DNA from: Rhynchobatus australiae
Taxonomy: Eukaryota
Assembly: GCA_034780895.1 (NCBI GenBank)
Contig: JAUZTB010000057.1
Location: forward strand, 5,547,956-5,611,955
Direction of reading: 5' to 3'
DNA length: 64,000 nucleotides
Under the pieces are notes generated by a model that saw nothing but the letters and a program-made list of their open reading frames with translations, had not been told where the DNA came from and ran no database searches. The translations under genes and the position numbers were made by a program. This document shows positions 1,345 to 60,865 of the stretch, one piece after another (positions within the stretch are counted from its first letter, which is position 1; every line of letters starts with the position of its first letter).

Positions 1345-1815
1345 GACAAAAGAACCGGAAGCAGGAGTAAGCAATCTGATCCCTCAAATGTGTTCCACCT
1401 TTCAGTACAGTCATGGCAGATTTGACCTTGGCCTCAGCACTTTCCTGGTTATATCTTATAATCATCAAATCCCCTATAGACAAAAAATCTGCACCTCTCA
1501 TCCTTGAATATATTCAATCATTCAGTTTTCGCACTTCTCTGGGTAGATAATTCCAAAGATTCATGACTTCCTGAGAGAAGAAATTCCTCCTTGTGTCCGT
1601 CTTAAATGGCCAGCCCCTCATTCTGTAACAATAGCCCTTGTTCCAGATCACTCCCTCAGCATTTACCCTATCAAGCCCCCTCAGAATCTTATATCCATCT
1701 ATAAGATCACCTCTCGTTCTTCTAAACTGCAAACAGCATAGGCTTATCCTACTCAGTCTTTCTTCATAAATAAAACCTTCATCCCAGGGCTCAACTGAGT
1801 GAACCTCCTCTGAAA
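1345..1815 (-). mobile_element. CR1-type LINE 3' end (ORF2 C-terminus and 3' UTR)
   Basis: ORF 1514-1864 contains YEERLSR..RRTRGDLIDGYKILRGLDRV..RRNFFSQEVMNLWNYLP, a typical CR1 ORF2 C-terminus. Confidence 0.85.
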
Positions 1816-2949
1816 TGCATTCATTCAGAAGATCATATGTTGTTGTTTCCCTTCTTGCACTCATTCACTTCCACTAGAACCGACCCATCCATCATCAGAT
1901 TCTAACTTGCTTTGGCAGTCTCTCCAGATCTGATTGTTCCCTTTAGGCCGATATCATTTACAAATCTGACCACTCTGTGTGAAGCTCCTGAATGCAAGCA
2001 ATTAATTAAAGACAGAAAAGATATGCAAGCATTTATCCTGAACTAGGACATCCCAAAGAGAGGTGGGTGGGAGTGGTGGTAACAGATGATTCAATACTTA
2101 TGAAGTGTGGTCACTGTTGTGTAAAAAAAATGTGGCAGCCAATTAGAGCATAGTGAGGTGACAGAAACAATAGTGAAATAAAACACTGCATAATTGATAC
2201 TGATGATATTGATTGATGGTGAAAAACTGGCCAGAACATGGAACACTTCACTTCAAAATAGTGCTGCAGGCAGATAGGGCTTTGTACTGGGTCATCTGAT
2301 AGAAATTACAAATTTGAAACTGCAGGGGTCCTGACCATAATATTAACCCCTCAACTCATTCCAATAAGAAATAGCCTTTCATAACGGTCCTTACATCACT
2401 TCTCCCCGCTCTTCAGCTTATTTCCCATAATTTCTTTGTAAACCCTGCGTTAACCTTTAACCAACACTTATTGATCCAGATCACTGAGGATCCTCGCTAA
2501 CTCCATATTTCTTCATATAACTGTCAGTAACTTTGGGATTTCTGGACAAACATGAAAGTCCCAAAATTGGAGTTATCTCTTTGCAGTTATTTTTCCAGAT
2601 GTGCTCAAAAGCTCGTTCCTCATGGAATCAGTGTGGGGGAGGGGGGGAGGGGGAGGAAACTGGGGAAATTCACCATCACTTGTAATGGGCAATCGACATG
2701 AACAGCTTCTGCCTGGCTAGGTCTGTCAATGGAACAGCGTCATCCATCTGCGATATTGGCTCATTTAATTTTCTTTATTCCTCTGGGAGTGGAGGAAATG
2801 CCCAGCCTGACCTGCCAGGCATGAGTTCCTAATGTGCATTTTGCAACTCCCACATTCTTTTGTCTGTATTCTCACTCTCTAACTGCACACATTCACTCAC
2901 TGACCATATAACTTGTTTACAACTTATCCCATGGTCACCCTGATTTCAC

Positions 2950-3108
2950 CCTATCAGAGACATCCTCCCACTCCCTGCAGACTAACAAGCTTCTTTTTTC
3001 TCCTTCCCAGTTCTGATGAAGGGTCTTTGACCTGAAACGTTAACTCTGTTTCTCTTCCCACAGATGCTGCCTGACCTGCTGAGTATTTCCAGCAGTTTCT
3101 GTTTTTAT
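2950..3108 (+). mobile_element. Penelope-like terminal repeat (pLTR) fragment containing a hammerhead motif
   Basis: CTGATGAAGGGTCTTTGACCTGAAACGTTAACT followed by the tail GATGCTGCCTGACCTGCTGAG..TCCAGCA. The same tail follows a GIY-YIG-type C-terminal ORF remnant at 60275-60865. Confidence 0.75.
3009..3045 (+). ncRNA. Minimal type I hammerhead ribozyme motif (Penelope-type, probably dimer-dependent)
   Basis: Stem I AGUU(3009-12)/AACU(3042-45); core CUGAUGA(3013-19) plus one extra A; stem II GGGUC-UUU-GACCU; GAAAC(3034-38); GUU triplet; stem III is the loopless palindrome ACGU. Confidence 0.7.
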
Positions 3109-3604
3109 TATCCTCATTCACTGCAATAGCAGGAAATGGCCTAGAATTGTAAAATGAATAATAGCTCATTGAGATGTTTTTCTTTAATTGCTTGAGTTTC
3201 TCTGCAATTAGAATTGTATGTTGGCAAAGCAAGTTTACATTGCTTTGTTAGTTGATGTAACCAGGTGCATCAAGAGAGTTGTTGGGAGTAATTTGGGTAG
3301 AATGCAGACAGACATTAGTAAGTTATGTTGGAGTTATAATGATCAATGGATTCTACACAACACAAAGGTCCAAAATCAGAGGAAAGGGGAAGTTGCTCAC
3401 TGCTGATGCAGCAGTAATTTGTTATTGTGCTTAAGCATTTTAGATTTTTCTTCAAGTCTGTAGTTTATTATTCTCACTGCTACAACCTCTAATCTACATT
3501 CTGATTACATCAGTTTACAGCCAATTAAGCAGGGAGAAGTTCTGATTGATGCTGGCCAATAAAGTTATTGCCTGCTTCACATCACTCGCATTGAAGTGCA
3601 AACA

Positions 3605-4077: not shown

Positions 4078-4480
4078 CCACTCCTTTGTCTTCCCTTATT
4101 CCCATGGCTCCTTTCCCTCACCTTGATGACCTGCCTATCTCCTCTCCTCCCCTCCCCCATCCTTTATTCCATGGTCCACTGCCCTCTCCTACTGGATTCC
4201 TTCTTCTTCAGCCNNNNNNNNNNNNNNNNNNNNNNNNNNNNNNNNNNNNNNNNNNNNNNNNNNNNNNNNNNNNNNNNNNNNNNNCTATCGTCTGCCTGTG
4301 TGTACTCCTCCCCTCCTCCTCATTCTGGCTTCTGCCCTCATCCTTTCCAGTCCTGATGAAGGGTCTCGACCCAAAATGTTTATTTCCCTCCATGGTGCTG
4401 CCTGACCTGCTGAGTTCCTCCAGCACTTTTTGTGTATTGCTCCAGATACATCCGGCACCTGCAGAATTTCTTGTGTCTCT
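4078..4480 (+). mobile_element. Penelope-like 3' region/pLTR with decayed hammerhead (core at 4353-4359)
   Basis: Pyrimidine-rich tract homologous to 60500-60860, then CAGTCCTGATGAAGGGTCTCGACCCAAAATGTT (GAAAC changed to AAAAT, consistent with CpG decay) and the shared tail. Confidence 0.75.
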
Positions 4481-5661
4481 GACATTGAACGAGTTACTGG
4501 ATTGGTAGCAGCAAATGAGGCCACCTTCCAGCTTTTCAAATCCAAGCCGACTTTCCACAAAAGCAATGCAGCTGGTCACCAGAGACCTGAAATATTTTGC
4601 TTCCAGTCCTGTTCCCTTTTGAAATCTGCCTCCACTACCCCGTCTGGTAATACACTTCAGACCCTAGCCTCTTGTTGGAAAAACAAGTTTTTAATCACAT
4701 CATTTTTGGTTCTTTTGCCAATCACTTTAGACCTATCTCCTCTCCTCCAGTTCTTGAGTTCCACCAAAGGGAACAGTTTCTGTTATCTGCTCTGCCTGGA
4801 TCACTATTAAATATCTCAGTCGTATCACTTTCGACCCTCATTGTTCTATTGAGAGGAATCCCAGCTTCTCCACCTTTCCCTGTAACACAAAACCCTCACC
4901 CTGGAGCCATTCCAGTAAATCTTTTCTGTACTCTTTCCGAGAGCTTCAGTGTCAGAACTAGACATAATCCTGCAGTTGTGGCCATATCAGTGTTTCTAAA
5001 GCTCCATTATAACTTGCTCACTTTGTGCTCCAAGCCTTATTTAGGAAGCCCAGAATCCCAAATGCCTTTTTAGCCACCTTCTCAATCTGTCCTACTACAT
5101 TTAGATGTTTAAAATTGTATCCTTTATATAATATTGCCTCTCCTGCTCCTGCCCACTTTGTTTTTCCTTCACTACCTAACCAGATGCTGAGAGCATTCCA
5201 TCATATCCAGATGCGCGTCTTGTAAATAGTTGAAAGGCTTGGGAGAGTCAGGAGGCGAGTTTCTGCGGGACATTCAACCTCTGACCTGGTTTTGTAACTA
5301 CTGAATTCACCTGCCTGATCCAATGACGTTTTAGTATTGAAAGTGACCCCTGCAAGTTGATGGCATGAGAGTCAGCAATGGCAATGCCACTGCACCCAAT
5401 GCAATATGTAGATGGTCTTTTGGACTGTTGGTACAAATGTTACTTTCTTATTATTGGTCCATGTCTATTGCTGCCTTGGTGTTTCTACATGCAGGCATGG
5501 TCTGCTTCACTACCTCAGGAGTTGCAAATGGAAGTAAATACTAGGAATACAGTGGACATCTCGACTGTGACCTTGTAATGGATGAAGCAGCTAAAGACAG
5601 TTTGGCCTCGTGACTCCTGCACTATGTCCTGGGTCTGAGAAGACTGGATTTCATCCACTGT

Positions 5662-6517
5662 TCTTGCATTGAATGACATCGCCTTCAATTCCATTCACTT
5701 TCGCCAAATCAAAGTTGTGGCTACAGGAATTTGCATGGGCGCGAGCTATGCCTATCTCCTCACGTTAGACTCTGAAAATCCTTCTCAGTACCGCTCCCTT
5801 ATTTCTTGCTCCGGTACAGTGATGACCACATTGACACTGCTTCCTACACTGACACAGAATTTCATCGCTTTTGTTGCCAATATCCACAATGTCCTCGCAG
5901 TCACATGGCCCATCTTGACTTTCCATTCCTTTCTTGACTTCACCTTCACATTAGGGGACCTGTTAGCATCCAGAATCTATTAAGAGCCCACAAGCTCCAA
6001 CTACACCTCCACCTCATTCACAACTACACCTCCTGCTCTGTTGCAACTCTGTTGCATCCTTCACTGTACCTGTTCTGATGACAAGACTTTTCATACATGT
6101 CTACGAGATGTCTTCCTCTTTGATTAACTGTAGTTTCCCCTCTGCCAAAATTGACAGGGCCCTCAATNNNNNNNNNNNNNNNNNNNNNNNNNNNNNNNNN
6201 NNNNNNNNNNNNNNNNNNNNNNNNNNNNNNNNNNNNNNNNNNNNNNNNNNNNNNNNNNNNNNNNNNNNNNNNNNNNNNNNNNNNNNNNNNNNNNNNNNNN
6301 NNNNNNNNNNNNNNNNNNNNNNNNNNNNNNNNNNNNNNNNNNNNNNNNNNNNNNNNNNNNNNNNNNNNNNNNNNNNNNNNNNNNNNNNNNNNNNNNNNNN
6401 NNNNNNNNNNNNNNNNNNNNNNNNNNNNNCACCTGCTCTCTTAGCTCATCCCTTCCCACCATCCAGGGGCCCAAAGTGAAGCAGCAATTCACATGCACTT
6501 CTTCCAACCCAGGGAAC
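5662..6517 (+). mobile_element. Penelope-like element reverse transcriptase remnant
   Basis: ORF 5669-5983 has NDIAFNSIHFRQIKVVATGICMGASYAYL (PLE RT pattern NNFxF....Q..G.AMG..MGP.YA.L) and a downstream FLD....GD.L...IY motif. Frameshifted and interrupted by an N gap. Confidence 0.75.
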
Positions 6518-6941: not shown

Positions 6942-7069
6942 TTCGGAAGTCACAGACATAGAAATAACATACAAGGGAGATGTAATTTTACACATTTGTG
7001 AAGAATTCGGAAGTCACAGACATAGAAATAACATACAAGGGAGATGTAATTTTACACATTTGTGAAGAA
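6942..7069. repeat. Perfect tandem duplication, 2 x 64 bp
   Basis: TTCGGAAGTCACAGACATAG...ACACATTTGTGAAGAA occurs identically at 6942-7005 and 7006-7069. Confidence 0.95.
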
Positions 7070-7354
7070 TAAACATGGTACCTAACCCCTGGCTCCAGAG
7101 GCTTGAACTGGAGAATGTATCAATAATAAAAGGAACATCAGGAAGCCAACGTACAAAGGGATTTGTGTCAAGTTCTGGTGGTCCCAAAATTTGTGCTCGA
7201 CTAAATTTCCATGAAAAGCAGAGGCTGGCAGAAAGATAAATACATCTTCTGGAACTCATGTTATTAGCCTATGTCATAATTTTTAAAACATTCATTCTGG
7301 GGCTACAGATGCTGCTCGTGAGCCATAATTTATTTTCTTTCCCACTTTTGTCTT

Positions 7355-10480: not shown

Positions 10481-10604
10481 ACTTTCATATTGAAATNNNN
10501 NNNNNNNNNNNNNNNNNNNNNNNNNNNNAGGACACCCACGGCCCCATCATCACTGATCATTTAAAACTTGCTGAATTGCGGGGGTGGGGGGGGGTGGCGT
10601 TGCG

Positions 10605-11290
10605 CACACTCCTGCTTACATCAACAGCGCTGAGGTGAAGAAGGTTGAGAGCCTGTCCTGGTCCAACCATGTAGACGAGGCCAAGAAAGCACACCAGTGC
10701 CTCTACTATCTCAGGAAGCTGAAGAAATTTGGCATGTCCCCTTTGGCCCTCACCAATTTTCATAGATGCACCATAGAAAGCATCCAGATGCATCACGTCT
10801 TGGTATGGCAACTGCTCTGCCAGGGGCTGCAAGAAATTGCACAGAGTTGTGGGTGCAGCTTGGCACATCACGAAACCAGCCTCCCCTCCATGGACTCTAC
10901 ACTGCCTCGGTAAAGTAGCCAACATAATCAAAGACCCCACCTAACCCAGACGTTCTCTCTTCGCCCTCCCATCAGGCAGAATATCAAAAGCCTGAAAACA
11001 TGCACAACCAGGTCAAGGACAGCTTCTATCCTGCTGTTATAAGACTATTGAATGGTCCTCTAGTAGGATAAGATGGACTCTTAACCTCACATTCTACTTT
11101 GTTATGGCCTTGCACCTTATTGTCTACCTGCACTGCACTTTCTCCGTAACTGTAGCACTTTATTCTGCATTGTTATTGATTTCCCTTGTACCACCTCAAT
11201 GCACTGATGTGATGAAGCGATCAGTATGGATGGCATGCAAAACAAAGTTTTTCGCTGTACCTCGGTACGTGACAAAAATAAACCAATTCC
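10605..11290 (+). mobile_element. Rex1/Babar-type LINE, 5'-truncated
   Basis: AKKAHQCLYYLRKLKKFGMSPLALTNFHRCTIES, followed in shifted frames by WYGNC, IIKDP and SFYP.VIRLLN, then a 3' UTR ending AATAAACCAATT. Confidence 0.85.
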
Positions 11291-19700: not shown

Positions 19701-21409
19701 CGTGAATTTTCCAAAAGGCAAGGCAAAGGATGTAACCACCTTTCTTGATGAAGGACTTGTACATGATCATTTCCAGGGATGAAGCAGGAACAATTGTTGG
19801 GGTTTGAAATTGGGTAATTTAAGCCCATAGGAAAAACATGTCTTTGAGTTTATGATGTTTCAGTGTTTTTAAGCATTCTTGTATGGTATAGATGAACACA
19901 TACTTTTAGTGCTGTGCTTATAAATATAATGAACATTCTTATCAGTTTTTCTTAAAAACAGCACTTTGAATAAGGGGTTAATCTTCTAAATACAAGTTGA
20001 TTTTCCTAGAAACTAAACAATGAATTATATGTTATTTTGACTGGATAACTGGAACAACATCCCATTCATGTGATGGTCTGAAACCAGTCTTCCATGAAAC
20101 TTAGGTTGAGAAAAGTACCATCGCTATATCTTGGGAAATGGGCAGTGGACAATCAGCACACAAAGTCCAGGAGGCTACAATGGAAGGAAACTAAGGCTTG
20201 GAATACTTTGACAGAATGCTGAAATTTTATTTGTTTAAGTCGGCCAGTCTGGGGAGCATATATTATCTATTTTCTCAAAATCATGGGTGATAACTTATGT
20301 AGGTTAAACTAAGCAAATCTAATCAAAACCAGTCTCTTTGTATATCTGTTTTACTGTGGAAGTAAACAGTTTAATGATTCAAATTAGGCCAAGACACATC
20401 TGATATTGAATTAGTCTGTGTTTCGACAAAATGAAGACAGACACAAATAACTGGTTAGTAGTTGTCTTATTATATTGGTTCCATCTATCTTCTAAGTAGT
20501 AATAAAGCAGTGAGACATTTTCCATAGAAGATGCATGGAGTATTCATCTTACCTACCCTGAGAAAGCCTCTGCAGAGGTCACCTTTACACAGAATTCTTG
20601 TGCAGGTGATTTGGATGAATCACTAAAAACCTCTCGTACTTTTGTAAAATGCAGGTCACCAGGAGCAGTGAGACGGGGATCCTGTAAGTTCTGGAGTAGG
20701 ATTCCAGAAGTGATAGCAGAGAGGGACTGCAGAAGCTTTGCCAGGAGAGATGGGGTACCAGTAGAGGAGCCAAACTGGATCCCAGAAGCAACAGTAGTAG
20801 TGGGTTCCCAGATGCAGCAGGGAGCTCACGTTAACTGAGGAGTGAGGTTAATTTTAAGAATTACACATAACATTTAAAATGTTTGGATATAACGACTTCA
20901 TGAAAATATATTGTTGCTTCCTTCCTGTCCAGCTTGGGAAATGAGCAAAAGTGACTATTCTGAAATTAAAGCAGGAAATAAACATCCAGATTCATTACAA
21001 TGATATCATTGGTCCTTAAGAATACAGAAGTTAATATAGCAGGGAGCACATTTCAGATATGATTTTTCAACCATTCATTTTAACTGCAAGAAAACTGTTT
21101 ACAGTGTTGCTAATGCGTGTTGACTTTGTTGATCTAAGATAAATAGGTAGAATGGACACTAGGTAAAATGGAATGAACCTGAAAATAGGTAGAAATAAAC
21201 TTTCAAATCGAGGGCAGGTTAATATAACTCCAGAATGGTGCTCCTTGTTCAAACTTCACATCTAATTGTAGGTGTCAAAGATATGGCTAAGTGGCAGTCA
21301 TCTTCCTAACAGAAAGGCTAGAGATCAATTTGTTAGTAACATGGTATGCTATTTTGAAACATCCCAGATTTTCTTTAAGAGCCCAAGCTTGCTGAAACAT
21401 TCCCAATTC

Positions 21410-21764: not shown

Positions 21765-21885
21765 GTCAAAAAATTGCAAATGCTGGAAATCTTAGAAAAA
21801 AATGCTGGAAACACTCAGCAGGTAAGGCTGCGATGGTGGGGGAAAAAGAAACAGAATCAATGTTTCAGGTCAGATTTTCATCACT
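21765..21885 (-). mobile_element. Degenerate Penelope-type pLTR tail
   Basis: ATGCTGGAAA..ACTCAGCAGGT..ATGTTTCAGGTCA..TCATCA is the reverse complement of the hammerhead-plus-tail unit. Confidence 0.6.
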
Positions 21886-26639: not shown

Positions 26640-27200
26640 ACAAAACCCCACTGGGAGTATTTTATAGGCCTGTAAAAGATGGCATTACTAGAGAAATGAG
26701 GAGCTAATAGCAAAAGGAACCTAATGATCATAGAGACACAAGAGACTGCAGATTCTGCAGTCTGCAGCAACAAACATTTTGTTGGAGGAACTCAGCAGGT
26801 CGAGCAGCATCTGCGGGAGGAATGGAATTGTCAACGTTTCAGGTTGAAACCCTGCATCAGGACTCTAATAATCATAGGGGAATTTATCCTGAATGAGAAA
26901 CAAAAAAAAGTGTCCTATGTTGCTTGGAAGCTGTGTTTAAAGAATGCATTTAGGACAGTTGTTGGTGCCATACATCATGGAACTAATAACAAGATAAGCT
27001 ACTTTAGATCTTGCTCTATGCCATGACAAATGGTCAATGTGTGATCTCATTGACGGGGATCATTGAGGGAAAAGTTATTACAATATGACTGTATTTTACA
27101 TTGGGTTTGAGTGTGACACACCCAAGTTGGAAACTAATGTGAATTATGGAGGTATGAGGGATGGATTGACTAAATTGGGAAATGAGATTAAAAACTGTGT
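26640..27200 (+). mobile_element. Decayed CR1 endonuclease-region fragment, interrupted by the mini-element
   Basis: LGVFYRP motif, IIIG.F on the far side of the insertion, and an LDL-like motif further on. Confidence 0.55.
26734..26864 (-). mobile_element. 131-bp hammerhead-bearing Penelope-type mini-element with 13-bp target-site duplication
   Basis: Flanked by CTAATGATCATAG (26721-26733) and CTAATAATCATAG (26865-26877). Minus strand starts AGTCCTGATGCAGGGTTTCAACCTGAAACGTTGAC, then the shared tail. Confidence 0.75.
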
Positions 27201-29324: not shown

Positions 29325-30720
29325 GGTGTAACATTTGCAGTTTCCCAGTCCTCCAGCACCACCCTGATGCATTCTGAGCTTCATAAATGAGAAGATTAAT
29401 CCCTCAACAATTTCAATCTCATAAACCTAGGACATGGTGACTAACCCACTTCAAACACAGATGGCACCTTTATCAATTCTTAACCTACCCAATATCTCAA
29501 CTGCCTCCGCTTACTCTAACTTTGGCAGAAACTTTTGGTTAAAACAGATATGAAAGCACCCCTGCAGTCTTTCCGTCACGCGTTCTTTCTCCATGCTAGG
29601 ACCACCTTGGCCTAATCCATTGTTATCCTACCCATTTATTATTTATATACCTACAGAACATCTTTTAATTTTCTTGTCTACCCATAGTCTCTCTTTGCCT
29701 TTATTTCCCCTTCTTAATGTTCCCTCTGGTATTTCTATCTTTGGCCTGATTCTCATTCACACAATCTAGCTGACTTCTGCTATAAAACCCCTTTTTCTGC
29801 TCCATCCCACTCTCTTACTTCCAGCATCCAGGAATTATTGCTGCCCTAACTTTTTTCCTTACTGTTGTAGAGCTAAAACCATATCCAAACCATTTTGAAG
29901 GCCTCCACTTGTTTAATTAGAGCCTTGCCTGCCAAGTTTGATTCCAGTTTACCCTGGCGACAACTGAAAACAGAAAACGTTGGAAGCACCCTTCGGGCAA
30001 ACAACACGAAAAACTGAGTATGTTGGAAGCCTGACATACAAATGGAAAATAATAAAAATGGAAAGAGAAGCAGAGTCTATGACCGTTAATCAGAACTGGG
30101 AAAAGTTAGAAATTAAACATGCTTCAAGGTACAGTGAAGAGGGAGGGGTGAAGTGGTTGCCTCTGACAGAGTGGAGACCAAAGAGAGTGATTAAGACAAA
30201 TGGTGGTGTGTTAACAGAGAGAGGACAGAGAAGACCGGTTAATCACAGATAATCTGCAACAGAAAATGCTGTAAAATACTCATCAGGTCAGGACACAGAT
30301 CCTGGCCAGATCCATTTTCTCCAGTAAAATTGGTAATCTTCCAATTACAAAATGTTCTTGCCCTTTTTCAGATAATCTTAACATTATGACTCTACTACTG
30401 TTTCCAAAAATGTACTTCCATTGAGACTTGCTCTAGTTGACTTCTTTTATTCCTAAACAACAGATCCAGCAATGCCTCCTTGCTAGCTTGGAAGTGTACT
30501 GATAAGACAATGCTCTCCGGAACATATTTCAACAAATCTTCTCTCTACTTTCTCTTAAGACTGTTACTACCCGAATCTTTAGGATAATTGAAGTCCTCCA
30601 TTACCATCATATAAAATTCTTGTCCTCACCATAATTTCCCTTTAAAATTGCTCTGTATTCTCCTCACTATAAGCTGGTCTATAGCTCGCTAATACATCCT
30701 CTTATGACATTGTCGAATTC
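29325..30720 (-). mobile_element. Old CR1-type LINE segment with a nested Penelope-type remnant (about 29960-30297)
   Basis: GTAACATTTGCAGTTTCCCAGTCC and AAGTCCTCCATTACC (reverse of V.GDF). The nested segment has AGAAAATGCTG..ATACTCATCAGGTCAGG. Confidence 0.5.
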
Positions 30721-36844: not shown

Positions 36845-37275
36845 GAGACAAAAACATAAAAGAGACTGCAGATGCAGGAAACTAGAACAAAAAAAAAACA
36901 CTGGAAGAACTCATTGGGTCAAGGAACATCTGTGGAGGCAACTAGGGTATCAACATGTCAGGTTGCCAGTATATAGCAGTATTTAGGGGATGGATAGAGG
37001 CAGGGATGTGATGGGTGGAACCATACGGGGAGGGAGTGATGGGCAGATCAAACCAGTTAGGGAGAGGGCATGGGGAGGATGAACAAAGAGAGAAGAAAAC
37101 AAGGTGGACATGCGAGTCTGTCTGGGTGGAGAACACAGGAGGTGTGGCTTATCCGAAAGTGGAAAATTCAATATTCGTACCATTGGATTTGTTAGCTACC
37201 CAAGCAGAATATGAGATTTTGTTCTTCCAGTCCGCGTTTAGCCTCCCTGTACCACTGGAGAAGGCCGAGGACAGA
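36845..37275 (-). mobile_element. Penelope-like element 3' end (endonuclease C-terminus and pLTR; hammerhead core deleted)
   Basis: Minus strand GLEEQNLIFCLGS...NIEFSTF, homologous to 60275-60363, followed by a pyrimidine tract and the shared tail. Confidence 0.7.
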
Positions 37276-44818: not shown

Positions 44819-47139
44819 CTATGAAATTCAAAGAGAAAAAAGACACAATTATAATTTCTTGTACTAATTTTAGCTGTACCCACTAACTGCAAAATTTTAT
44901 TTTTATTGGTGGTAGTTTAGCAAGTGGAAATTTGAATAAATAAGGAATCTCTTTTGCAGATGACCATGGAGTAAGAGGTGACATGTAGAAATCATTTCCT
45001 GTGTGAAGTAATCGGGCTTTGTACAAGATACTATACAAGGCATCAGATCTACACAAAGCTCATGGTTGACTTGGGCAGCAATGATCCATATCCTACATTT
45101 GCTTCCGAGTCCTGCTGTGGACACCTCAAGACACTGCAATAATACCAGCAATGTCTGCAAAATCCTCTAAATTCACTGGAAGGATAAGTGAACAAATATT
45201 GGTCTTCTCTCCCAGGCCAAATCTACAAAAAAAATGTCTTTTAAAGAAAAAAAAATCAGAAATAAAAATTCATCGAGCTATTAATGGTTATTCAAGTACA
45301 AATGCAAGATGCTGGAAGTATCCATATTCTTGTGAAGTTGTGAATAAACAAATAGCAGTAATTTGTTCAGCTTTCTCATCTCTTTCCCCACTGGAAGTTC
45401 AGTTGATGCAAATGCCTTGGCTTATTTTCTACATACTAAAAGTGGTGCCTATTATGTGGTAATTATTGAATCAATGAGCCATCATAATTTTGAAAACTTA
45501 GACTGCTTACTAATTCAGATCCCTTGCTACTTCAAAAAGAGGGTATGTCCTTTTGACTTAAGAGGACCTATAGAGGACCTTAAGAGGATCTATATGTGAG
45601 CAATGCAATATTATTCTCCACTCTGCTGAAGAACCCAGACTGGACTAGATAGCCAACTGAATGTCTTTGAGGAACACTAACACGAAAGAAACATGCTTTG
45701 GCATAGACAGGAAGAGATTGTTGCTGTGACTTAGCACACAATATTATTAGCACATGGATGTGAATGCTTTGGAAAATTCCACTTAAGTGAAAACAGCAGC
45801 NNNNNNNNNNNNNNNNNNNNNNNNNNNNNNNNNNNNNNNNNNNNNNNNNNNNNNNNNNNNNNNNNNNNNNNNNNNNNNNNNNNNNNNNNNNNNNNNNNNN
45901 CAGCAAGAAACCAAGCAGTTACTGCTATGGAAAAATAATAAAGCTATTACATGATTTTTATGGGAAGCAGGTAGTTCAAACAAAGTTATTGCTATTCAGA
46001 AATTAAACATCTTTAATCTATTATCATGTATTCATGCACAAAGTATGGTCATTCCACCGATTGATTTTTATCTGCATGATTTTCAGAAAAATCCAGGTTG
46101 CATATACCATGTGATTAATAATGGAGATTATTAATTACATATATGAAGCATGGATTTTTCATCATCAAATCATCATTGCATGATATTTGTGCTGTGTTTT
46201 ATATGACTTCAAGGTTTCAAAGGATTTTACAGCTGCTGGAGACAAGTTTTAAGTGGTCACTCTCATCACCACATATAGAATCGTTAGTGGCCATTTGGCT
46301 CATCATACCTGCCCTTACAGTCATTCTCTTTCCCCATAACTCCGCATTTTCTTCCTTTAAGTATCCAATTCAATTTTGATCATTGCTTATGCACCAGCTT
46401 CTACTAATTTTCAATCTGTGCATTCAAGTTTCAACACAGTTTTCCCTCATGTCATCTGTGTTTTTCTGGCACACTGCCTTAAACCTCAGTCTTCTGACTA
46501 CCAACCATTTTGTCACTGAAGCTGTACTGTTTAACTTACTGCAGCAAAATCCTTAAATAATATTAACATCCCAATCAAATCTCCCTTAAAGTGCACTATT
46601 TAAAGAAGTTAATTTAAGAATTTAAAGAGTTTCTCCAGGCTCCCCCAAAACTTAAGTCTTTCATCCACAGTATCATGCTAATCCACAATATCATGCTAGT
46701 ATGCCTCTTCTGTAAAGCCTTGACAATTTTCCTGTGTGTGACTTTCAGAATTGCTCTTGTATTCTATGCTTCTGCTTACTAAGCCAAGCATCCCTTCTGC
46801 TGCTTTGACTTGGCTTCAAGCTTCAAAGGCTGCACCCTCTTTAAAATTATTCCATTTAATTCATACCATCACTTCTCAGTCCTGCTCACCAGGGAATCAA
46901 TCTATATTTATCCATGCTATATTTCATCTGCTTGGCTTTGTGCCTCCAGAATTCTACTATTACTCTTCTGACTGTTCATAATATTTGAATTTTGCATCAT
47001 CCCTAATATTATAGACTGTGTATCCAAATCCATGTGATTAAGATATCTCAATAAGACCAGCAAGCCACAAACCCCATCTCATTTGGGTACCTTTTCTAAC
47101 AAGACTTGATTATTTGGCGCCAAAAGCCTAATTCACCAT

Positions 47140-48395
47140 TCAATAGGATCAGAGCTGACACCATGCCTCATCCACATTTTCCCTGATGCTCTTAGTATCC
47201 AAAAGTCCAGCAATCTTGCCCTTTTACATACTCAAAGACTGATATTTCATAAATCCAGTGCAGAGAAGTTCAAAGATTTATAGAGACACAAGAAATTCAG
47301 CAGATGCTGAATTTATAACCGAGGAAAGAAATTGCACATCTGGCCTAAATAGCTCACCCCTTATCTCCTAGTCAGGACTCTCTAGCTATAGGACCCTATC
47401 GATCCCTTTCAGAAACTCCTACAACTCACTGAAACCATTGCTCATTATTCCATTATCCAGTAAGGTAAGGGCCATTCTTATTCAAACTTTCTTCAAACGA
47501 CAACACCCTCATCCCAAGAATTACTTTAGTAAATTCATACTGCACTCACTCCAAGGCATGGTGGCCAAATCTACAGATAGTGATTCAAATTAGACCTCAC
47601 CAAGCTGTACAAGTTGAGCCAAATTTCCTAACTTCTGTATTCCAACCCACTGTAATAAAAGGCATTCCATTTGCCTTCCTAATTGTTTGCCGTACCTCTA
47701 TATTTATTTTCCAAGTCTCATAAACAAGCATTTANNNNNNNNNNNNNNNNNNCAATTGAATAGAAAAACAGAATACTTTTTAAATAATGAAACCAGTTGA
47801 TCATCATTTAAAAAGTATTCTGTTTTTCTGTTCTTCCTACCAAACTCAATAACCTCACATTTTCCAATATTATATTCCATCTGCAACTTTCTTGTTTGCT
47901 TACTTATTTCATTCTTACAGGTCACTTTGTTACCAAGCTTTATTTATTGACCAATCTGGATATGAGGGTATTTTCATCAGTCAACATTATAAGTCGTTAA
48001 TTCTGATGCCAGTGAGACTGAACACCTAACAAAATGCCAACCTGAAAATGACCTGTTTATTGCGACTCTGTTTTCTATCCTTTAAACAATCGTTAAGTAT
48101 TCCAACATCGAGAATCAGGTTCCCTTTCAGCTACACCGATGATCATATCCTCAAAGACTATTAGCTTTGTCAAACATACTTTTTCTTTCATAAAGGCATG
48201 TCAACTCTGCCTAATCAAACTAGAATTTTCTAACTGCCTTGTTACCAAAGAATGATGGATTCTAGTAATTTGTTCCAACAGTTGTTCTCTGGTTCCCTAT
48301 TCTATTTCACCTTTCTTTCTTAAATAGCGCGTTACAGAAGGCATCACTTTCCAATCTGTTGGAACTCATCCAGAATTTAGGACAATCACTAATAG
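47140..48395 (-). mobile_element. Old CR1-type LINE segment
   Basis: ORF 47704-47925 contains QMEYNIGKCEVIEFGRKNRKTEYFLN (CR1 RT motif WQMxFN.xKC.V.HFG). Confidence 0.7.
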
Positions 48396-48534
48396 ATGTA
48401 CATTTGGCCTACTTTATGTAAATTTGCTCGATCCTATTTCTTTATTTACTCCTCCTTTACTCTGAGAAACTCTCCTGTTGTGAAGGTTGGTGTAATTCTC
48501 ATTTTCTACCTCAGGTACAATCTCTTCCTCCACA

Positions 48535-49228
48535 ATACCTGGGACCTGGGAGTACAAATGCACTGTTCGCTGAAAGCAGCTGCGCAAGTAGACAGGGTGG
48601 TGAAGAAGGTGTTTAGCATGCTGGCCATCAGTCAGGCCATCAACTTCAGGAGTAGAGACATTATGTTGCAGTCCCATAAGTCATTGGTAAGGCTGCACTT
48701 GGAGTATTGTGTAGAGTTTTGGTCATCCTGTTATGGGAAAGACATTGTCAAGCTGGAGAGGGTGCAGAAGAGGTTTATGAGGATGCTGCCTGGACCAGAG
48801 GGTTTGAGTTATAGGCAGAGGTGGGCCACACTGGATCTTTATTCCTTGGAACGCAGGAGAATGAGAGGTGACCTCATAGAAGTTTATAAAATCATGAGGT
48901 GTATGGATAAGGTGGAAGGTCATACTCTTTTCCCCAGGGTTAGGGAGCCCATAACTAGAGGGATAAGAGGGGAGATATTTAAAAGAGACTGGAGAGGTAA
49001 CTTGTTTACACAGAGGGTAGTGAGTACCTAGAATGAGCTGCCAGAGGAAGTGGTCAAGACAGGTACAGTTTCAACATCTAAGAGGCATTTGGATAAGTAC
49101 ATGGAGGAGAGGGTTTGGAGGGTTATGGGTCGAACTCAGGCAAAGGAGGCTAGCAGGGAGGATGCTGTGGATGACATAGATCAGTTGGGCCAAAGGGCCA
49201 GGTCCCATGCTGTATTACTCTGTGACTT
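48535..49228 (+). mobile_element. CR1-type LINE, 5'-truncated, relatively young
   Basis: Stop-free DLGVQMHCSLKAAAQVDRVVKK...LVRLHLEYCVEFWS...RRRMRGDLIEVYKIMR...GNLFTQRVV, followed by a 3' UTR. Confidence 0.9.
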
Positions 49229-56959: not shown

Positions 56960-58045
56960 CCTGACTGATGGCCAGCAAAAACTCCTGGAGGGGAAGAAGC
57001 TGTTCCTAAAACGTTGAGCGAGAGTCTTCAGGCTCCTGTACTCGATGGTAGTGTTGAGAAGAGGGCATATCCCAATGGTGAGAGTCCTTAACGATGGATG
57101 GTGCCTTCTTGAGGCACTGCCTCTTGAAGATGTCCTTGATGGTGAGGAGGGTTGTGCCTGTGATGGAGCTGGCTGAGTTTACAACCCTCTGCAGCCTCTT
57201 ATGATCCTGCACATTGAAGCCTCCGTACCAGGCGGTGATGCAACCAGTCAGAATGCTCTCCATTGTACATCTGCAGGAATATGCAAGAGTCTATGGTAAC
57301 ATACTAAATCTCCTCAAATTTCCAATGAAGTAGAGCTGCTGGTGTGCCTTCTTCATGATTGCATCAATGTGTTGGGCCCAGGATAGATCCCCTGAGATGT
57401 TGACGCCCAGGAACTGCTCACCCTTTCCACCGCTGACCCCTCAATGAGGACTGGTGTGTGTTCTCCCGACTTCCCCTTCCTTAAGTTCATAATCAATTCC
57501 TTGGTCTTACTTACGTTGAGTGTGAGGTTGTTGTTGCGACACCACTCAACCAACTGATCTGTCTAACCCCTGTACGCCTCTTCATCGCCATCTGAGATTC
57601 TGCCAACAACCGTGGTATCATCAACCAATTTATAGATGGAGACTGAGCTGTGCCTAGCCGCACAGTCTTGAGTGTAGAGTAGAGCAGAGCAGCGGGCTAA
57701 GCATGCATCCTTGAGATGCGTGTGTGTTGATTGTCAGCAAGGAGGAGATGTTATTATCAATCAGCAGTGACTGTGGTCCCTCGATAAGGAAGTCGAAGAT
57801 CCAGTTGCAGAGGGAGGTACAGAGGCCCAGGTTTTGAAGCTTGTTGATTAGTGCTGATGGGACAATGGTGTGGAACACTGAGCTGTAATCGATAAACAGC
57901 AGCCTAATGTATGTATTGCTGCAGTCTAGGTGCTCCAAAATCGAGTGAAGAGCTGGTGAGATTGTGTCTGCTGTAGACCTGTTGCGGCTGTAGGCAAATT
58001 GCAGTGGGTCCAGGTCCTTGCTCAGGTAGTAGTTAATTTTAGCCA
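56960..58045 (-). mobile_element. Rex1/Babar-type LINE RT region, about 1.1 kb
   Basis: LDPLQFAYSRNRST, YIRLLFIDYSSVFHTI, QGCMLSPLL, WCRNNNLTLNVSKTKELI, ESILTGCITAWYG. Frameshifted. Confidence 0.9.
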
Positions 58046-60274
58046 TTAATTTGATTAAATTAAGCCATTAAAGGGGTTCATTCTAGTCATATTTACTAAA
58101 GTGGGCAATTTTAAGGATGCAAACAAGTTGCATTCTTATAACTGTGACTTCTTTAATTGAAGCTGCCAAGGCACTGAGAATCCGTCCCTTTAAAGTTGAT
58201 GAGCTCTTCTTTCATATACCACTGTACAAGGGAATGGCTGCATCTAAGTAAATATTCTGCAGTATCTAATCCTGTGTAATCGCTACCCTCATGATATTAC
58301 AGGCCATCAGAGCAAATTTCCCAGCATTTATGAAAACAATACCTGTTATTCCAATATGAAACGTGTCATTTTAAAAGAATCCCCTGCTAGTAAGTGCACT
58401 TATTTTCATTATGTGGCAATGAATTAACATAAAGCAATAGTCTGAGGAATCATCACCACACAGCAGGTTCATACTGTTCAGCGAGAATGTGCACTGATTA
58501 CTTTGCTAAACATACAGATCCTAATGAAGAACACAACCTTCTAAAAGAATGAAGTGCACTACTTGCCTTGTACTTACTTGAAATTTACCTGATATCTTGT
58601 CATACAGGGCAAGAGACTGCAGTTTGTGGATTATGTAACACAGAAAATGGACAGGTATTATATCTATTTTTCATTGTGATCTGGAATCAAGTACTTACAC
58701 ATAAAAACTGCCAAATGCAGAAGTGATTTTTTAGTGCTAAATACATTTTAATGATGATGTTTTAAAAAAGGAAGGTTCCGTGTAAAAATACCACAATTTA
58801 CTGCAAGACAAAGTGCATTTACCTGAATATTTCATCATAAATATAGCAGCAGTGTTAGGAGCTGTATGATCAATACTTCATTCTCACTTTAATACTAAGT
58901 TCATTGTTACTTTTAAATTTTGCTGTCTGCCTCACTCCAACAGCACCTTCAAAACTTTTAACTTCTAACACCAAGGACAAGTGCAGATGGGGCACAGGAA
59001 CACTATCACAGGTTCCCCTCCAAGTCACACATCATCTCAATTTGAAAACATTGCTGGTCCTTCACTGCTGCTGCACCTAAACCCTGAAATTCCTTACTCT
59101 ACAGCACTGTGGGAGTACCTTCAACAGAAAGAAACGCCCCAATCCAAGGAGATGGTTTGCCTCCACTTTCTCAAAGGTGAAAAGCTGGCCAGAGATGCCC
59201 AGTATCCGCCTAGCATTTCAGTTTTTCAGTTCCAGGCATCTTTGCAATGACGATGCACCTCAGGGTAGAAGGTTTGGGTGGAGGGGGAGAAGGCCAGAAG
59301 CACCACTGCTCTCTTCTTTAATTTCTGCTTTACCCTCATGCCATCAAGCTTCTTTTGAGAAAGAGATGCACATTCTTTGCCCATCCAGACTACATCTTCA
59401 ACGTCCTGGGTGCCCCAGTATCGAAGAGTCACAGAGCAGGGAAATTGGCCAGTTGGCCCACCACAACCATGTCAACCTGTGGGCACCCATCCGAATTAAT
59501 CCTATTTTCCAGCACTTGATTCATAGCTTTCTATGCCTAAGTGATTCAAATGCTCATATAGACATTTATCAAGTGGTCTCAGTGACCCTCCTTCCACCAC
59601 TCTCTGGCAGTGTATTTCAGGAACTCACCTCTGAGTGAAAAAGGACTCCTTAGATCTCCTTTCTCTTACCCCTTCTCTATGTCCTCTAGGGTAGAATTAG
59701 CTTTCTCTGTATTACATTAAACCATGGAAGTAGGTCTAGGTCTCCAAAAAGGGAAAATAATCAATGCCTCAAGACTCAGTGTCCGCTTTCCTCATCAACT
59801 CATTATTTTAGGACTTCAGAACAACTCTGTTTCAACCTCTGCAGACTGTTATACGTCCATACATTTCCTAAAATGCTTTCAGTTTGTCCATAGCATTTTT
59901 TTTATTTTTTTCAATCTTGTTGATTTCATACATCAGTCATTGATCTTTCACCAAAGATTCTTAATAAAATTGTGTTTCTTAAGATATTTTGAATGGAGCA
60001 ACAAATAGTTTAAGGATATTTTATGCATCCAAATGAATTTCAGCAAACTAATTTTGACAGACAACAAATCAGTGAGTATACCGAAATTGAAGTTTAAGAG
60101 AAACATATACGCCTTTAATTTTTGTCAATAAACATTTTTGATATTCTTGCAATTAATTCTTTAGTGGCAAAACTGAGAATATCTAGTAAAGTAAAATTGA
60201 CTAAAACTGATACAAGGTGAGGTTCTCACCTGCTGTGCAGTTTACGTCTTAATGAAAATAAACACACAATGTAT

Positions 60275-60865
60275 AAGACAAAATTAGAGGAACAGCACCT
60301 CATATTCCATCCGGGCAGTCTCCAACCTGGTGGCATGAACGTCAAATCCTCAAACTTCCAGTAACATCTCCCCCTTTGTCCCTTTTTTCCCCTTCTTTCT
60401 TTTCTCTCTTCTGATTCAACTGGCCCCTATTGCCCTCTCTCTTTCCCCTCCCCCACCATCTCTGCCCATCACCCACACACTCCACCCACTGGTTCCTCAC
60501 TCCACCTCCTCCTTATATTCCATGGTCCAGTGGCCTCTCCGACCAGATTCCATCATCTTCAGCCCTTTGTCACTTCCACCTATCACCTCCCAACATCTGA
60601 CATCATTCCCACTCTCCCCCCCACCCTCATCTGCCTATCACCCCCACACACAGTGATCCACCTATCACCCGCCAGCTACTGCTCCTCCCCTTTGCTCCAC
60701 CTTTTTATACCGGCTATCTCCCCTCTTTATTTCAGTCCAGACAAAGGGTGTGGACCCAAAACATCAACTGTCCATTTCCCTCCATAGGTACTGCCTGACC
60801 TGCTGAGTTCCTCCAGCGCTTGGTGCGTTACTCCAGATTCCAGCATCTGCAGTCTTTTGTATCTA
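60275..60865 (+). mobile_element. Penelope-like element 3' end: endonuclease C-terminus, C/T-rich spacer and pLTR with decayed hammerhead (60733-60770)
   Basis: KLEEQHLIFHPGSLQPGGMNVKSSNFQ*, then CAGTCCAGACAAAGGGTGTGGACCCAAAACATCAACTG and the shared tail. Confidence 0.8.

What the first reader, a model, noticed from the sequence alone, without database searches (positions are those of the whole stretch)
3009..3045. Intact-core minimal hammerhead ribozyme in a Penelope-type repeat, with covariation across copies
Seen: AGUU-CUGAUGA-A-GGGUC-UUU-GACCU-GAAAC-GUU-AACU, with all core nucleotides present. Related copies lie at 4348-4380 (+), about 21855-21885 (-), 26830-26864 (-) and 60733-60770 (+). 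Against the 26830 copy, stem I changes GUU/AAC to GUC/GAC and stem II changes GUC/GAC to GUU/AAC, both compensatory. Established: Penelope-like elements carry minimal type I hammerheads in their pLTRs, with a palindromic stem III (here ACGU) that forms only in dimers. Inference: this abundant repeat is a ribozyme-bearing family, and this copy may still cleave when paired with a second copy.
Basis: partly seen in the sequence, partly recalled or inferred. Interest (0 to 1): 0.7.

Follow-up and report, generated by a model that had tools for sequence, protein, structure and literature searches.

The report
Fossil Penelope hammerhead, core still intact
This is a real miniature self-cutting-RNA motif at the leftover end of a Penelope-type jumping gene, a known arrangement; it is one of thousands of core-intact copies among roughly 400,000 decayed ones in this genome and is likely inactive where it sits, so it is mostly ordinary.

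Summary
The motif at 3009-3045 is present as written. It lies in a 370-base 5'-truncated end (2739-3110) of a Penelope-like element; relatives continue upstream into RT, a Neptune-type cysteine linker and GIY-YIG on the same strand. Such minimal hammerheads are published (Cervera and De la Pena 2014), and this scan found them before, also in this genome. The family has about 190 fragments per Mb; 3,445 keep the core. Intact cores occur at the chance rate (3 of 75, 3.4 expected). None of the four other copies named has a canonical core. Stem I covariation is real but lies between subfamilies; the claimed stem II covariation is not supported. The copy has no intact partner nearby, so it is likely inert. 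Two extras: copy 5' ends pile up at the start of stem I, not at the cut site, and a large lineage carries C at core position 9 (713 copies against 137 for G plus U).

The parts
2739..3110 (+). 5'-truncated 3' end of a Penelope-like element, subfamily A (3' untranslated part, hammerhead, tail)
   Evidence: Six relatives align from 2739 on, most to about 3105-3110; they run on upstream into GIY-YIG and RT remnants. No target duplication above the null.
2739..3008 (+). 3' untranslated part, ending in a pyrimidine run and CAG
   Evidence: 32 of 246 positions differ from the majority of 12 long relatives.
3009..3045 (+). Minimal type I hammerhead motif, all core bases present
3009..3012 (+). Stem I 5' strand; also the place where many other copies of the family begin or fold back
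3013..3020 (+). Core CUGAUGA plus the extra A typical of PLE minimal hammerheads
   Evidence: Sequence; Cervera 2014.
3021..3033 (+). Stem II, 5 pairs and a UUU loop, closed by G-U
   Evidence: Formed in the predicted fold.
3037..3041 (+). ACGU palindrome (stem III only between two molecules) and GUU triplet; predicted cut after 3041
   Evidence: Sequence; dimer model evaluated. Cleavage not tested.
3042..3045 (+). Stem I 3' strand
   Evidence: Sequence.
3046..3110 (+). Tail shared by all subfamilies; the copy ends here
4349..4453 (+). Subfamily B copy, core broken (G12A, no palindrome, cut site lost)
21780..21881 (-). Subfamily A fragment, hammerhead 5' half lost
26753..26864 (-). Subfamily C copy, C at core position 9, 3-pair stem I
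36873..36965 (-).
60734..60846 (+). Subfamily B copy, core broken at four positions

Best explanation
The motif is the minimal hammerhead of a Penelope-like retroelement with a Neptune-type linker, lying in a 370-base truncated end copy that likely kept its core by chance and is likely inactive in place. In the ancestral master elements the motif would have cut RNA only when two copies paired through ACGU, probably with help from the element's protein (inferred from published work). Reverse transcription would have started in the tail and usually stopped or folded back within or just behind the hammerhead, scattering about 400,000 short ends; this one ran 270 bases further. After insertion the copies decayed neutrally.
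For: Shown: relatives of the copy continue on the same strand into RT, a CxxxxCxxC linker and GIY-YIG, matching P0007/P0008 down to E 1e-39 to 7e-43. Best relatives of the ORF part are 68-84% and 70-78% identical, so the subfamily is old. 193 fragments per Mb in 100 evenly spaced 10-kb stretches, 0 in the reversed control. 3,445 core-intact matches genome-wide, 162 of the AGUU type, controls 0. Core plus palindrome intact in 3 of 75 unbiased copies, 3.4 expected from independent decay; the palindromic CpG is intact in 17 of 75. Across four tail-defined subfamilies the positions free in a hammerhead vary (7, 17, loop 2, pair 2.1-1.1), while three of four keep the whole core. Published: min-HHR anatomy and no monomer activity (PMC4209133); protein-assisted cleavage in Anolis (PMC11167929).
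Against: Hammerhead plus tail of this copy differ from the family majority at 5 of 97 positions against 32 of 246 upstream (Fisher p 0.035, binomial 0.01), though the copy was picked for being intact. Core positions are a little better kept than the tail over all copies (87.5% against 83.6%, p 0.007), a comparison biased by requiring alignment to the core. No intact full-length element was seen among the best-scored candidates, so the master structure is inferred from fragments. No cleavage was measured.
Confidence: 0.78

Rival explanations
1. The hammerhead-shaped element mattered to these masters mainly as a start or copying signal, and cutting was weak or dispensable.
For: Copy 5' ends pile at the start of stem I (44 of 157) and avoid the cut site (4 of 157). 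C at position 9 in 19 of 75 unbiased copies and 713 genome-wide against 137 for G plus U. Hammerhead mutants did not affect insertion in vitro in Anolis; Naiads thrive without it.
Against: Three of four subfamilies keep the full core while free positions change. The extra A might take over position 9 in the C lineage (untested). This reading is partly compatible with the best one.
Confidence: 0.12
2. This particular copy has been kept by selection and cuts a host transcript, alone with protein help or paired with another transcript's copy.
For: Low divergence in hammerhead plus tail. A contig of another organism (run X12) spans the left junction of the insertion, so it is old.
Against: Intact copies occur at the chance rate; the same 37-mer stands at 4 of the first 100 of 162 places listed; no intact partner on this strand in the window; stems are short and the active dimer is disfavoured in the energy model; no host gene was identified around it.
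Confidence: 0.06
3. The repeat is a non-autonomous tandem retrozyme that copies through circles.
For: Same-strand pairs 174 to 406 bases apart; retrozymes were reported in one cartilaginous fish and derive from PLEs (bioRxiv 2026.07.22.740005).
Against: Four of the five close pairs read in full are duplicates across a run of N and the fifth is a 76-base local duplication. The 3009 copy is single and its relatives join an ORF.
Confidence: 0.04

Closest known systems
[quoted passage not shown]
   Same: Type I, short stem I, extra base between positions 9 and 10.1, palindromic 15.2-16.2 without loop 3, mostly single dispersed copies in consensus families, found in fish Xena, Poseidon and Neptune elements.
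   Different: Stem II is 4-5 pairs here (7-8 in Schistosoma). This copy closes stem II with G-U. A lineage with C at position 9 is not among the variants in the parts I read (U3-A8 is). Sharks and rays are not named in those parts.
PAc, Poseidon of Anolis carolinensis, Frangieh et al. 2024, PMC11167929
   Same: Hammerhead in the pLTR followed by a tail of about 100 bases where copies end; no sign that RNA ends at the cut site are what gets copied.
   Different: PAc is intact and was shown to cleave with protein; this family has a Neptune-type linker and only decayed ORF pieces were seen.
Neptune clade EN+ PLEs (Craig et al. 2021, PMC8557442)
   Same: RT, CX2-5CxxC linker, C-terminal GIY-YIG, heavy 5' truncation, inverted copy at the 5' end.
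   Different: No tree was built, so Nematis, which shares the linker, is not excluded.
Non-LTR retrozymes (Li, Clavereau and Pollet 2026, bioRxiv 10.64898/2026.07.22.740005)
   Same: Type I hammerhead in PLE-derived non-coding sequence.
   Different: Retrozymes are tandem arrays; the pairs checked here are assembly duplicates or a local duplication.

Membership tests
PLE minimal hammerhead | Core CUGANGA, GAAA, UH | tested here: met
PLE minimal hammerhead | Extra base between 9 and 10.1 | tested here: met
   A at 3020; in all four subfamilies.
PLE minimal hammerhead | Palindromic 15.2-16.2 | tested here: met
   CG at 3038-3039; decayed as a CpG in most copies.
PLE minimal hammerhead | G10.1-C11.1 pair (highly conserved, not absolute) | tested here: inconclusive
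   G-U in this copy; G-C 28, G-U 24, A-U 15, unpaired 9 of 76; G-C is the majority in subfamilies B and C.
PLE minimal hammerhead | Stems supported by covariation between families | tested here: inconclusive
   One clear pair in stem I; score 0.242, reached by 3 of 500 shuffles, which ignore kinship; slid controls 0.06-0.17.
PLE minimal hammerhead | Self-cleavage as a dimer | not testable with these tools
   Only energies were computed.
EN+ Penelope-like element | RT followed by GIY-YIG on the strand of the pLTR | tested here: met
   In relatives L002, L093, L213, L217; absent from the truncated window copy.
EN+ Penelope-like element | 5' truncation, inverted 5' copy, variable tail | tested here: met
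   30 head-to-head pairs within 400 bases among 199 hits.
EN+ Penelope-like element | Full-length element between two pLTRs | tested here: inconclusive
   None among 22 long loci; only the best 40 candidates of each search were scored.
Neptune clade | CX2-5CxxC linker between RT and EN | tested here: met
   L002, P0007 and P0008.
Neptune clade | Placement in an RT tree | not tested
   No reference sequences were at hand.
Rfam hammerhead families | Match to a covariance model | tested here: not met
   No hammerhead hit at E<=10.
Non-LTR retrozyme | Two or more tandem units with complete hammerheads | tested here: not met
   Single copy at 3009.

The most novel reading that the evidence does not exclude
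The genome is a fossil record that Penelope elements copy uncut RNA whose front edge is the first base of the hammerhead's stem I (a transcription start or splice acceptor), and that a lineage with a changed core (C at position 9, 3-pair stem I) amplified to about a quarter of all copies: either cleavage is dispensable in vivo, or CUGAUG-C-A is an undescribed working core.
Probability: 0.35. Interest if true: 0.5.

Novelty: new member of a known kind. Interest (0 to 1): 0.22.

Why it matters
The single copy matters little. The family matters somewhat, because what hammerheads do for Penelope-like elements is an open question. A genome with about 400,000 ends, several subfamilies and a natural core variant gives matched test substrates, and the mapped 5' ends say which RNA form was copied.

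Tried and rejected
Rfam scan: no hammerhead. Monomer folding: no stability above shuffles (z -0.79) and not the hammerhead fold. Natural tandem dimers: 4 of 5 are duplicates over N gaps, 1 a local duplication. Full-length element: hammerheads upstream of the ORF pieces in L209 and L217 are separate insertions. Target duplication for the window copy: score 8, within the null. Expression: no RNA holder listed, which is no evidence either way. Orthologous ribozyme in run X12: contigs break in the repeat, not resolved. Host gene: Pfam on 12 chosen window frames found only retroelement domains and two weak hits; the open frame at 20506-20838 found nothing. Pfam GIY-YIG on the decayed L002 piece was below cut-off (E 0.05 and 0.08); homologue and atlas searches with L093 pieces gave nothing usable, so the assignment rests. 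Lunse et al. 2017 could not be read; its variants may include the position 9 change. Supplements of Cervera 2014 and of the 2026 preprint were not seen and may hold shark or ray motifs.

Full report
Observation. A structural descriptor finds only this place in the window, 2 more in 1 Mb of evenly spaced genome and none in the reversed control. Rfam finds no hammerhead. The four other copies are where stated but all depart from the canonical core; two further fragments lie near 30050-30300 and 36873-36965.

What it sits in. The genome is 2.23 Gb, likely a cartilaginous fish, since the named protein relatives are from a ray and a shark. The window copy aligns to relatives from 2739 to about 3110. 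Those relatives continue upstream on the same strand into GIY-YIG motifs and RT motifs. A stop-free piece of L217 found 9 proteins; P0007 carries RVT_1 and GIY-YIG above Pfam's cut-offs, and P0007 and P0008 align along L002, L093, L213 and L217 in the order RT, linker, endonuclease, ahead of the hammerhead. L002 shows a CxxxxCxxC linker broken by a stop, which Craig 2021 gives as the mark of Neptune and Nematis (passages). The best ORF relatives are 68-84% and 70-78% identical, so this subfamily is old.

Abundance. A profile of hammerhead plus tail gave 193 hits in 100 stretches of 10 kb from 14 large contigs (19% N), 0 in the reversed control. Scaled up that is about 430,000 fragments, inverted pairs counting twice. 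Whole-genome patterns gave 3,445 core-intact matches, 162 of the AGUU type and 97 exact copies of one B-type motif, all with control 0. The patterns are strict, so these are lower bounds; about 1 fragment in 100 has an intact core.

Covariation and selection. Clustering 107 near-complete hits on the tail alone gave four subfamilies at K=4, a number I chose by inspection of K=2-6. Of the 102 outside the window, 75 that align from the first three profile positions were scored. A has stem I UU/AA and a longer stem II; B, C and D have UC/GA; D has A at position 7; C has C at position 9 in 14 of 20. Pair 2.1-1.1 is C-G 31, U-A 20, U-G 8, unpaired 17 in 76 rows; the covariation score 0.242 is reached by 3 of 500 shuffles, which ignore kinship (the fourth stem II pair was misaligned in 47 rows). 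Eight of 12 long A-type copies have U-G there, the expected intermediate. So the stem I change is one or a few events in master lineages. The stem II change is not supported: it would close a 2-base loop, and among 30 position-9-C loci the pair is C-G 11, C-A 8, U-G 7, U-A 1, other 3 (counted). Core plus palindrome is intact in 3 of 75 copies, 3.4 expected by independent decay. Against my reading: core positions match their majority slightly better than the tail (87.5% against 83.6%, p 0.007), and this copy's hammerhead plus tail differs at 5 of 97 positions against 32 of 246 upstream (p 0.035). Both are biased by how the copies were picked, and among tens of thousands of A-type copies a 1-in-100 tail holds hundreds.

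Could it cut? The monomer does not fold as a hammerhead and is no more stable than shuffles. The double hammerhead evaluates to -8.5 kcal/mol against -14.6 for two monomers and -20.5 for the best alternative dimer; a B-type copy gives -14.1, -19.6 and -29.7. These energies leave out core contacts and protein. Cervera 2014 saw no monomer activity and low dimer activity (parts 1-2 of 4 read); Frangieh 2024 saw cleavage only with the element's protein (passages and half of the main text). The nearest same-strand copy is 1.34 kb away and broken. Apparent tandem pairs elsewhere were gap duplicates in 4 of 5 cases. I therefore take this copy as likely inert in place; latent activity in vitro is open.

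Where copies begin. Of 160 sample hits scoring 30 bits or more, 3 at an edge were dropped. Of 157, 91 align from positions 1-5, 56 from 6-28, 4 from 29-36 (the cut site) and 6 further down. Of the 91, 47 continue into family sequence upstream, 19 have an inverted arm within 20 bases and 25 have unrelated DNA. Six simulations with an even truncation rate put 7.5-12% of hits in the class 'starts at 1-5 without the pyrimidine run', against 33% observed (28% after removing copies with another upstream type), and 13-44% at or after the cut site, against 6%. In two other whole-genome runs, 9 of the 11 opposite-strand joints shown (of over 700 joints, only the best supported are shown) have one end at 3007-3012. 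L181 is bounded by a 14-base target duplication and begins one base before stem I (19 of 181 copies passed the score, against 6 of 150 in the null). Inference: the copied RNA was uncut, which agrees with the Anolis result. The edge could be a transcription start (the sequence fits an initiator consensus, recalled), a splice acceptor as at helix I of Drosophila Penelope, or a stall at the paired stem; I cannot tell which. Inverted 5' copies are known for PLEs (passages).

Position 9 lineage. C at position 9 is found in 19 of 75 unbiased copies and in 713 otherwise intact motifs against 137 for G plus U, so it is inherited, not scattered decay. A search for 'A9C' with hammerhead found 0 papers; Lunse 2017 could not be read and is known to me only through a review (passages).

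Novelty. The motif type, its place and its dimer logic are published. Searches for sharks or elasmobranchs gave one review and four genome or transposon papers, seen as listings only; the 2026 preprint reports retrozymes in one cartilaginous fish (passages); one search listed one plant review, not read. The scan holds 29 similar notes from at least 16 genomes, one shown from this genome and two remarking on the same 5' edge; I had reached that reading before looking. Verdict: new member of a known kind, interest 0.22.

Noticed in passing
window 26753-26864 (-); L173-L202: A lineage with C at hammerhead core position 9 and a 3-pair stem I makes up about a quarter of copies; at least two tail types carry it.
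   Followed up: partly
L203, L204, L126, L078: Identical hammerhead copies flank runs of N 174-406 bases apart: likely false duplications of the assembly, a trap for tandem-ribozyme searches.
   Followed up: yes
L181, L130, L176, L064, L049, L128: Short direct or fold-back insertions bounded by 12-15-base target duplications; L128 by a duplication of about 64 bases.
   Followed up: partly
window 5639-5983 (+): Faint remnant of a PLE-type RT (43% over 35 residues to P0008, E 0.002).
   Followed up: partly
window 20506-20838: A stretch open in one frame on each strand, exon-like; no relative found.
   Followed up: partly
window 57654-58067 (-), 10575-10913 (+), 48396-49031 (+), 1514-1864 (-): Decayed LINE-type pieces; the first matches RVT_1, the second ALKBH8_N; the last two are judged by eye.
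   Followed up: no
window 46086-46160 and 47758-47833: Two short inverted repeats of about 76 bases (77% and 87% self-complementary), possibly small DNA-transposon remnants.
   Followed up: no
window 6942-7070: Exact 65-base tandem duplication.
   Followed up: no
window 30050-30300 (-): Two rearranged pieces of the same family, a tail piece ahead of an untranslated piece with a deleted hammerhead.
   Followed up: no
run X1 laid on window 2974-3137: A run of another organism, guessed to be RNA, holds a related hammerhead-plus-tail repeat at high depth with none of the upstream part.
   Followed up: no
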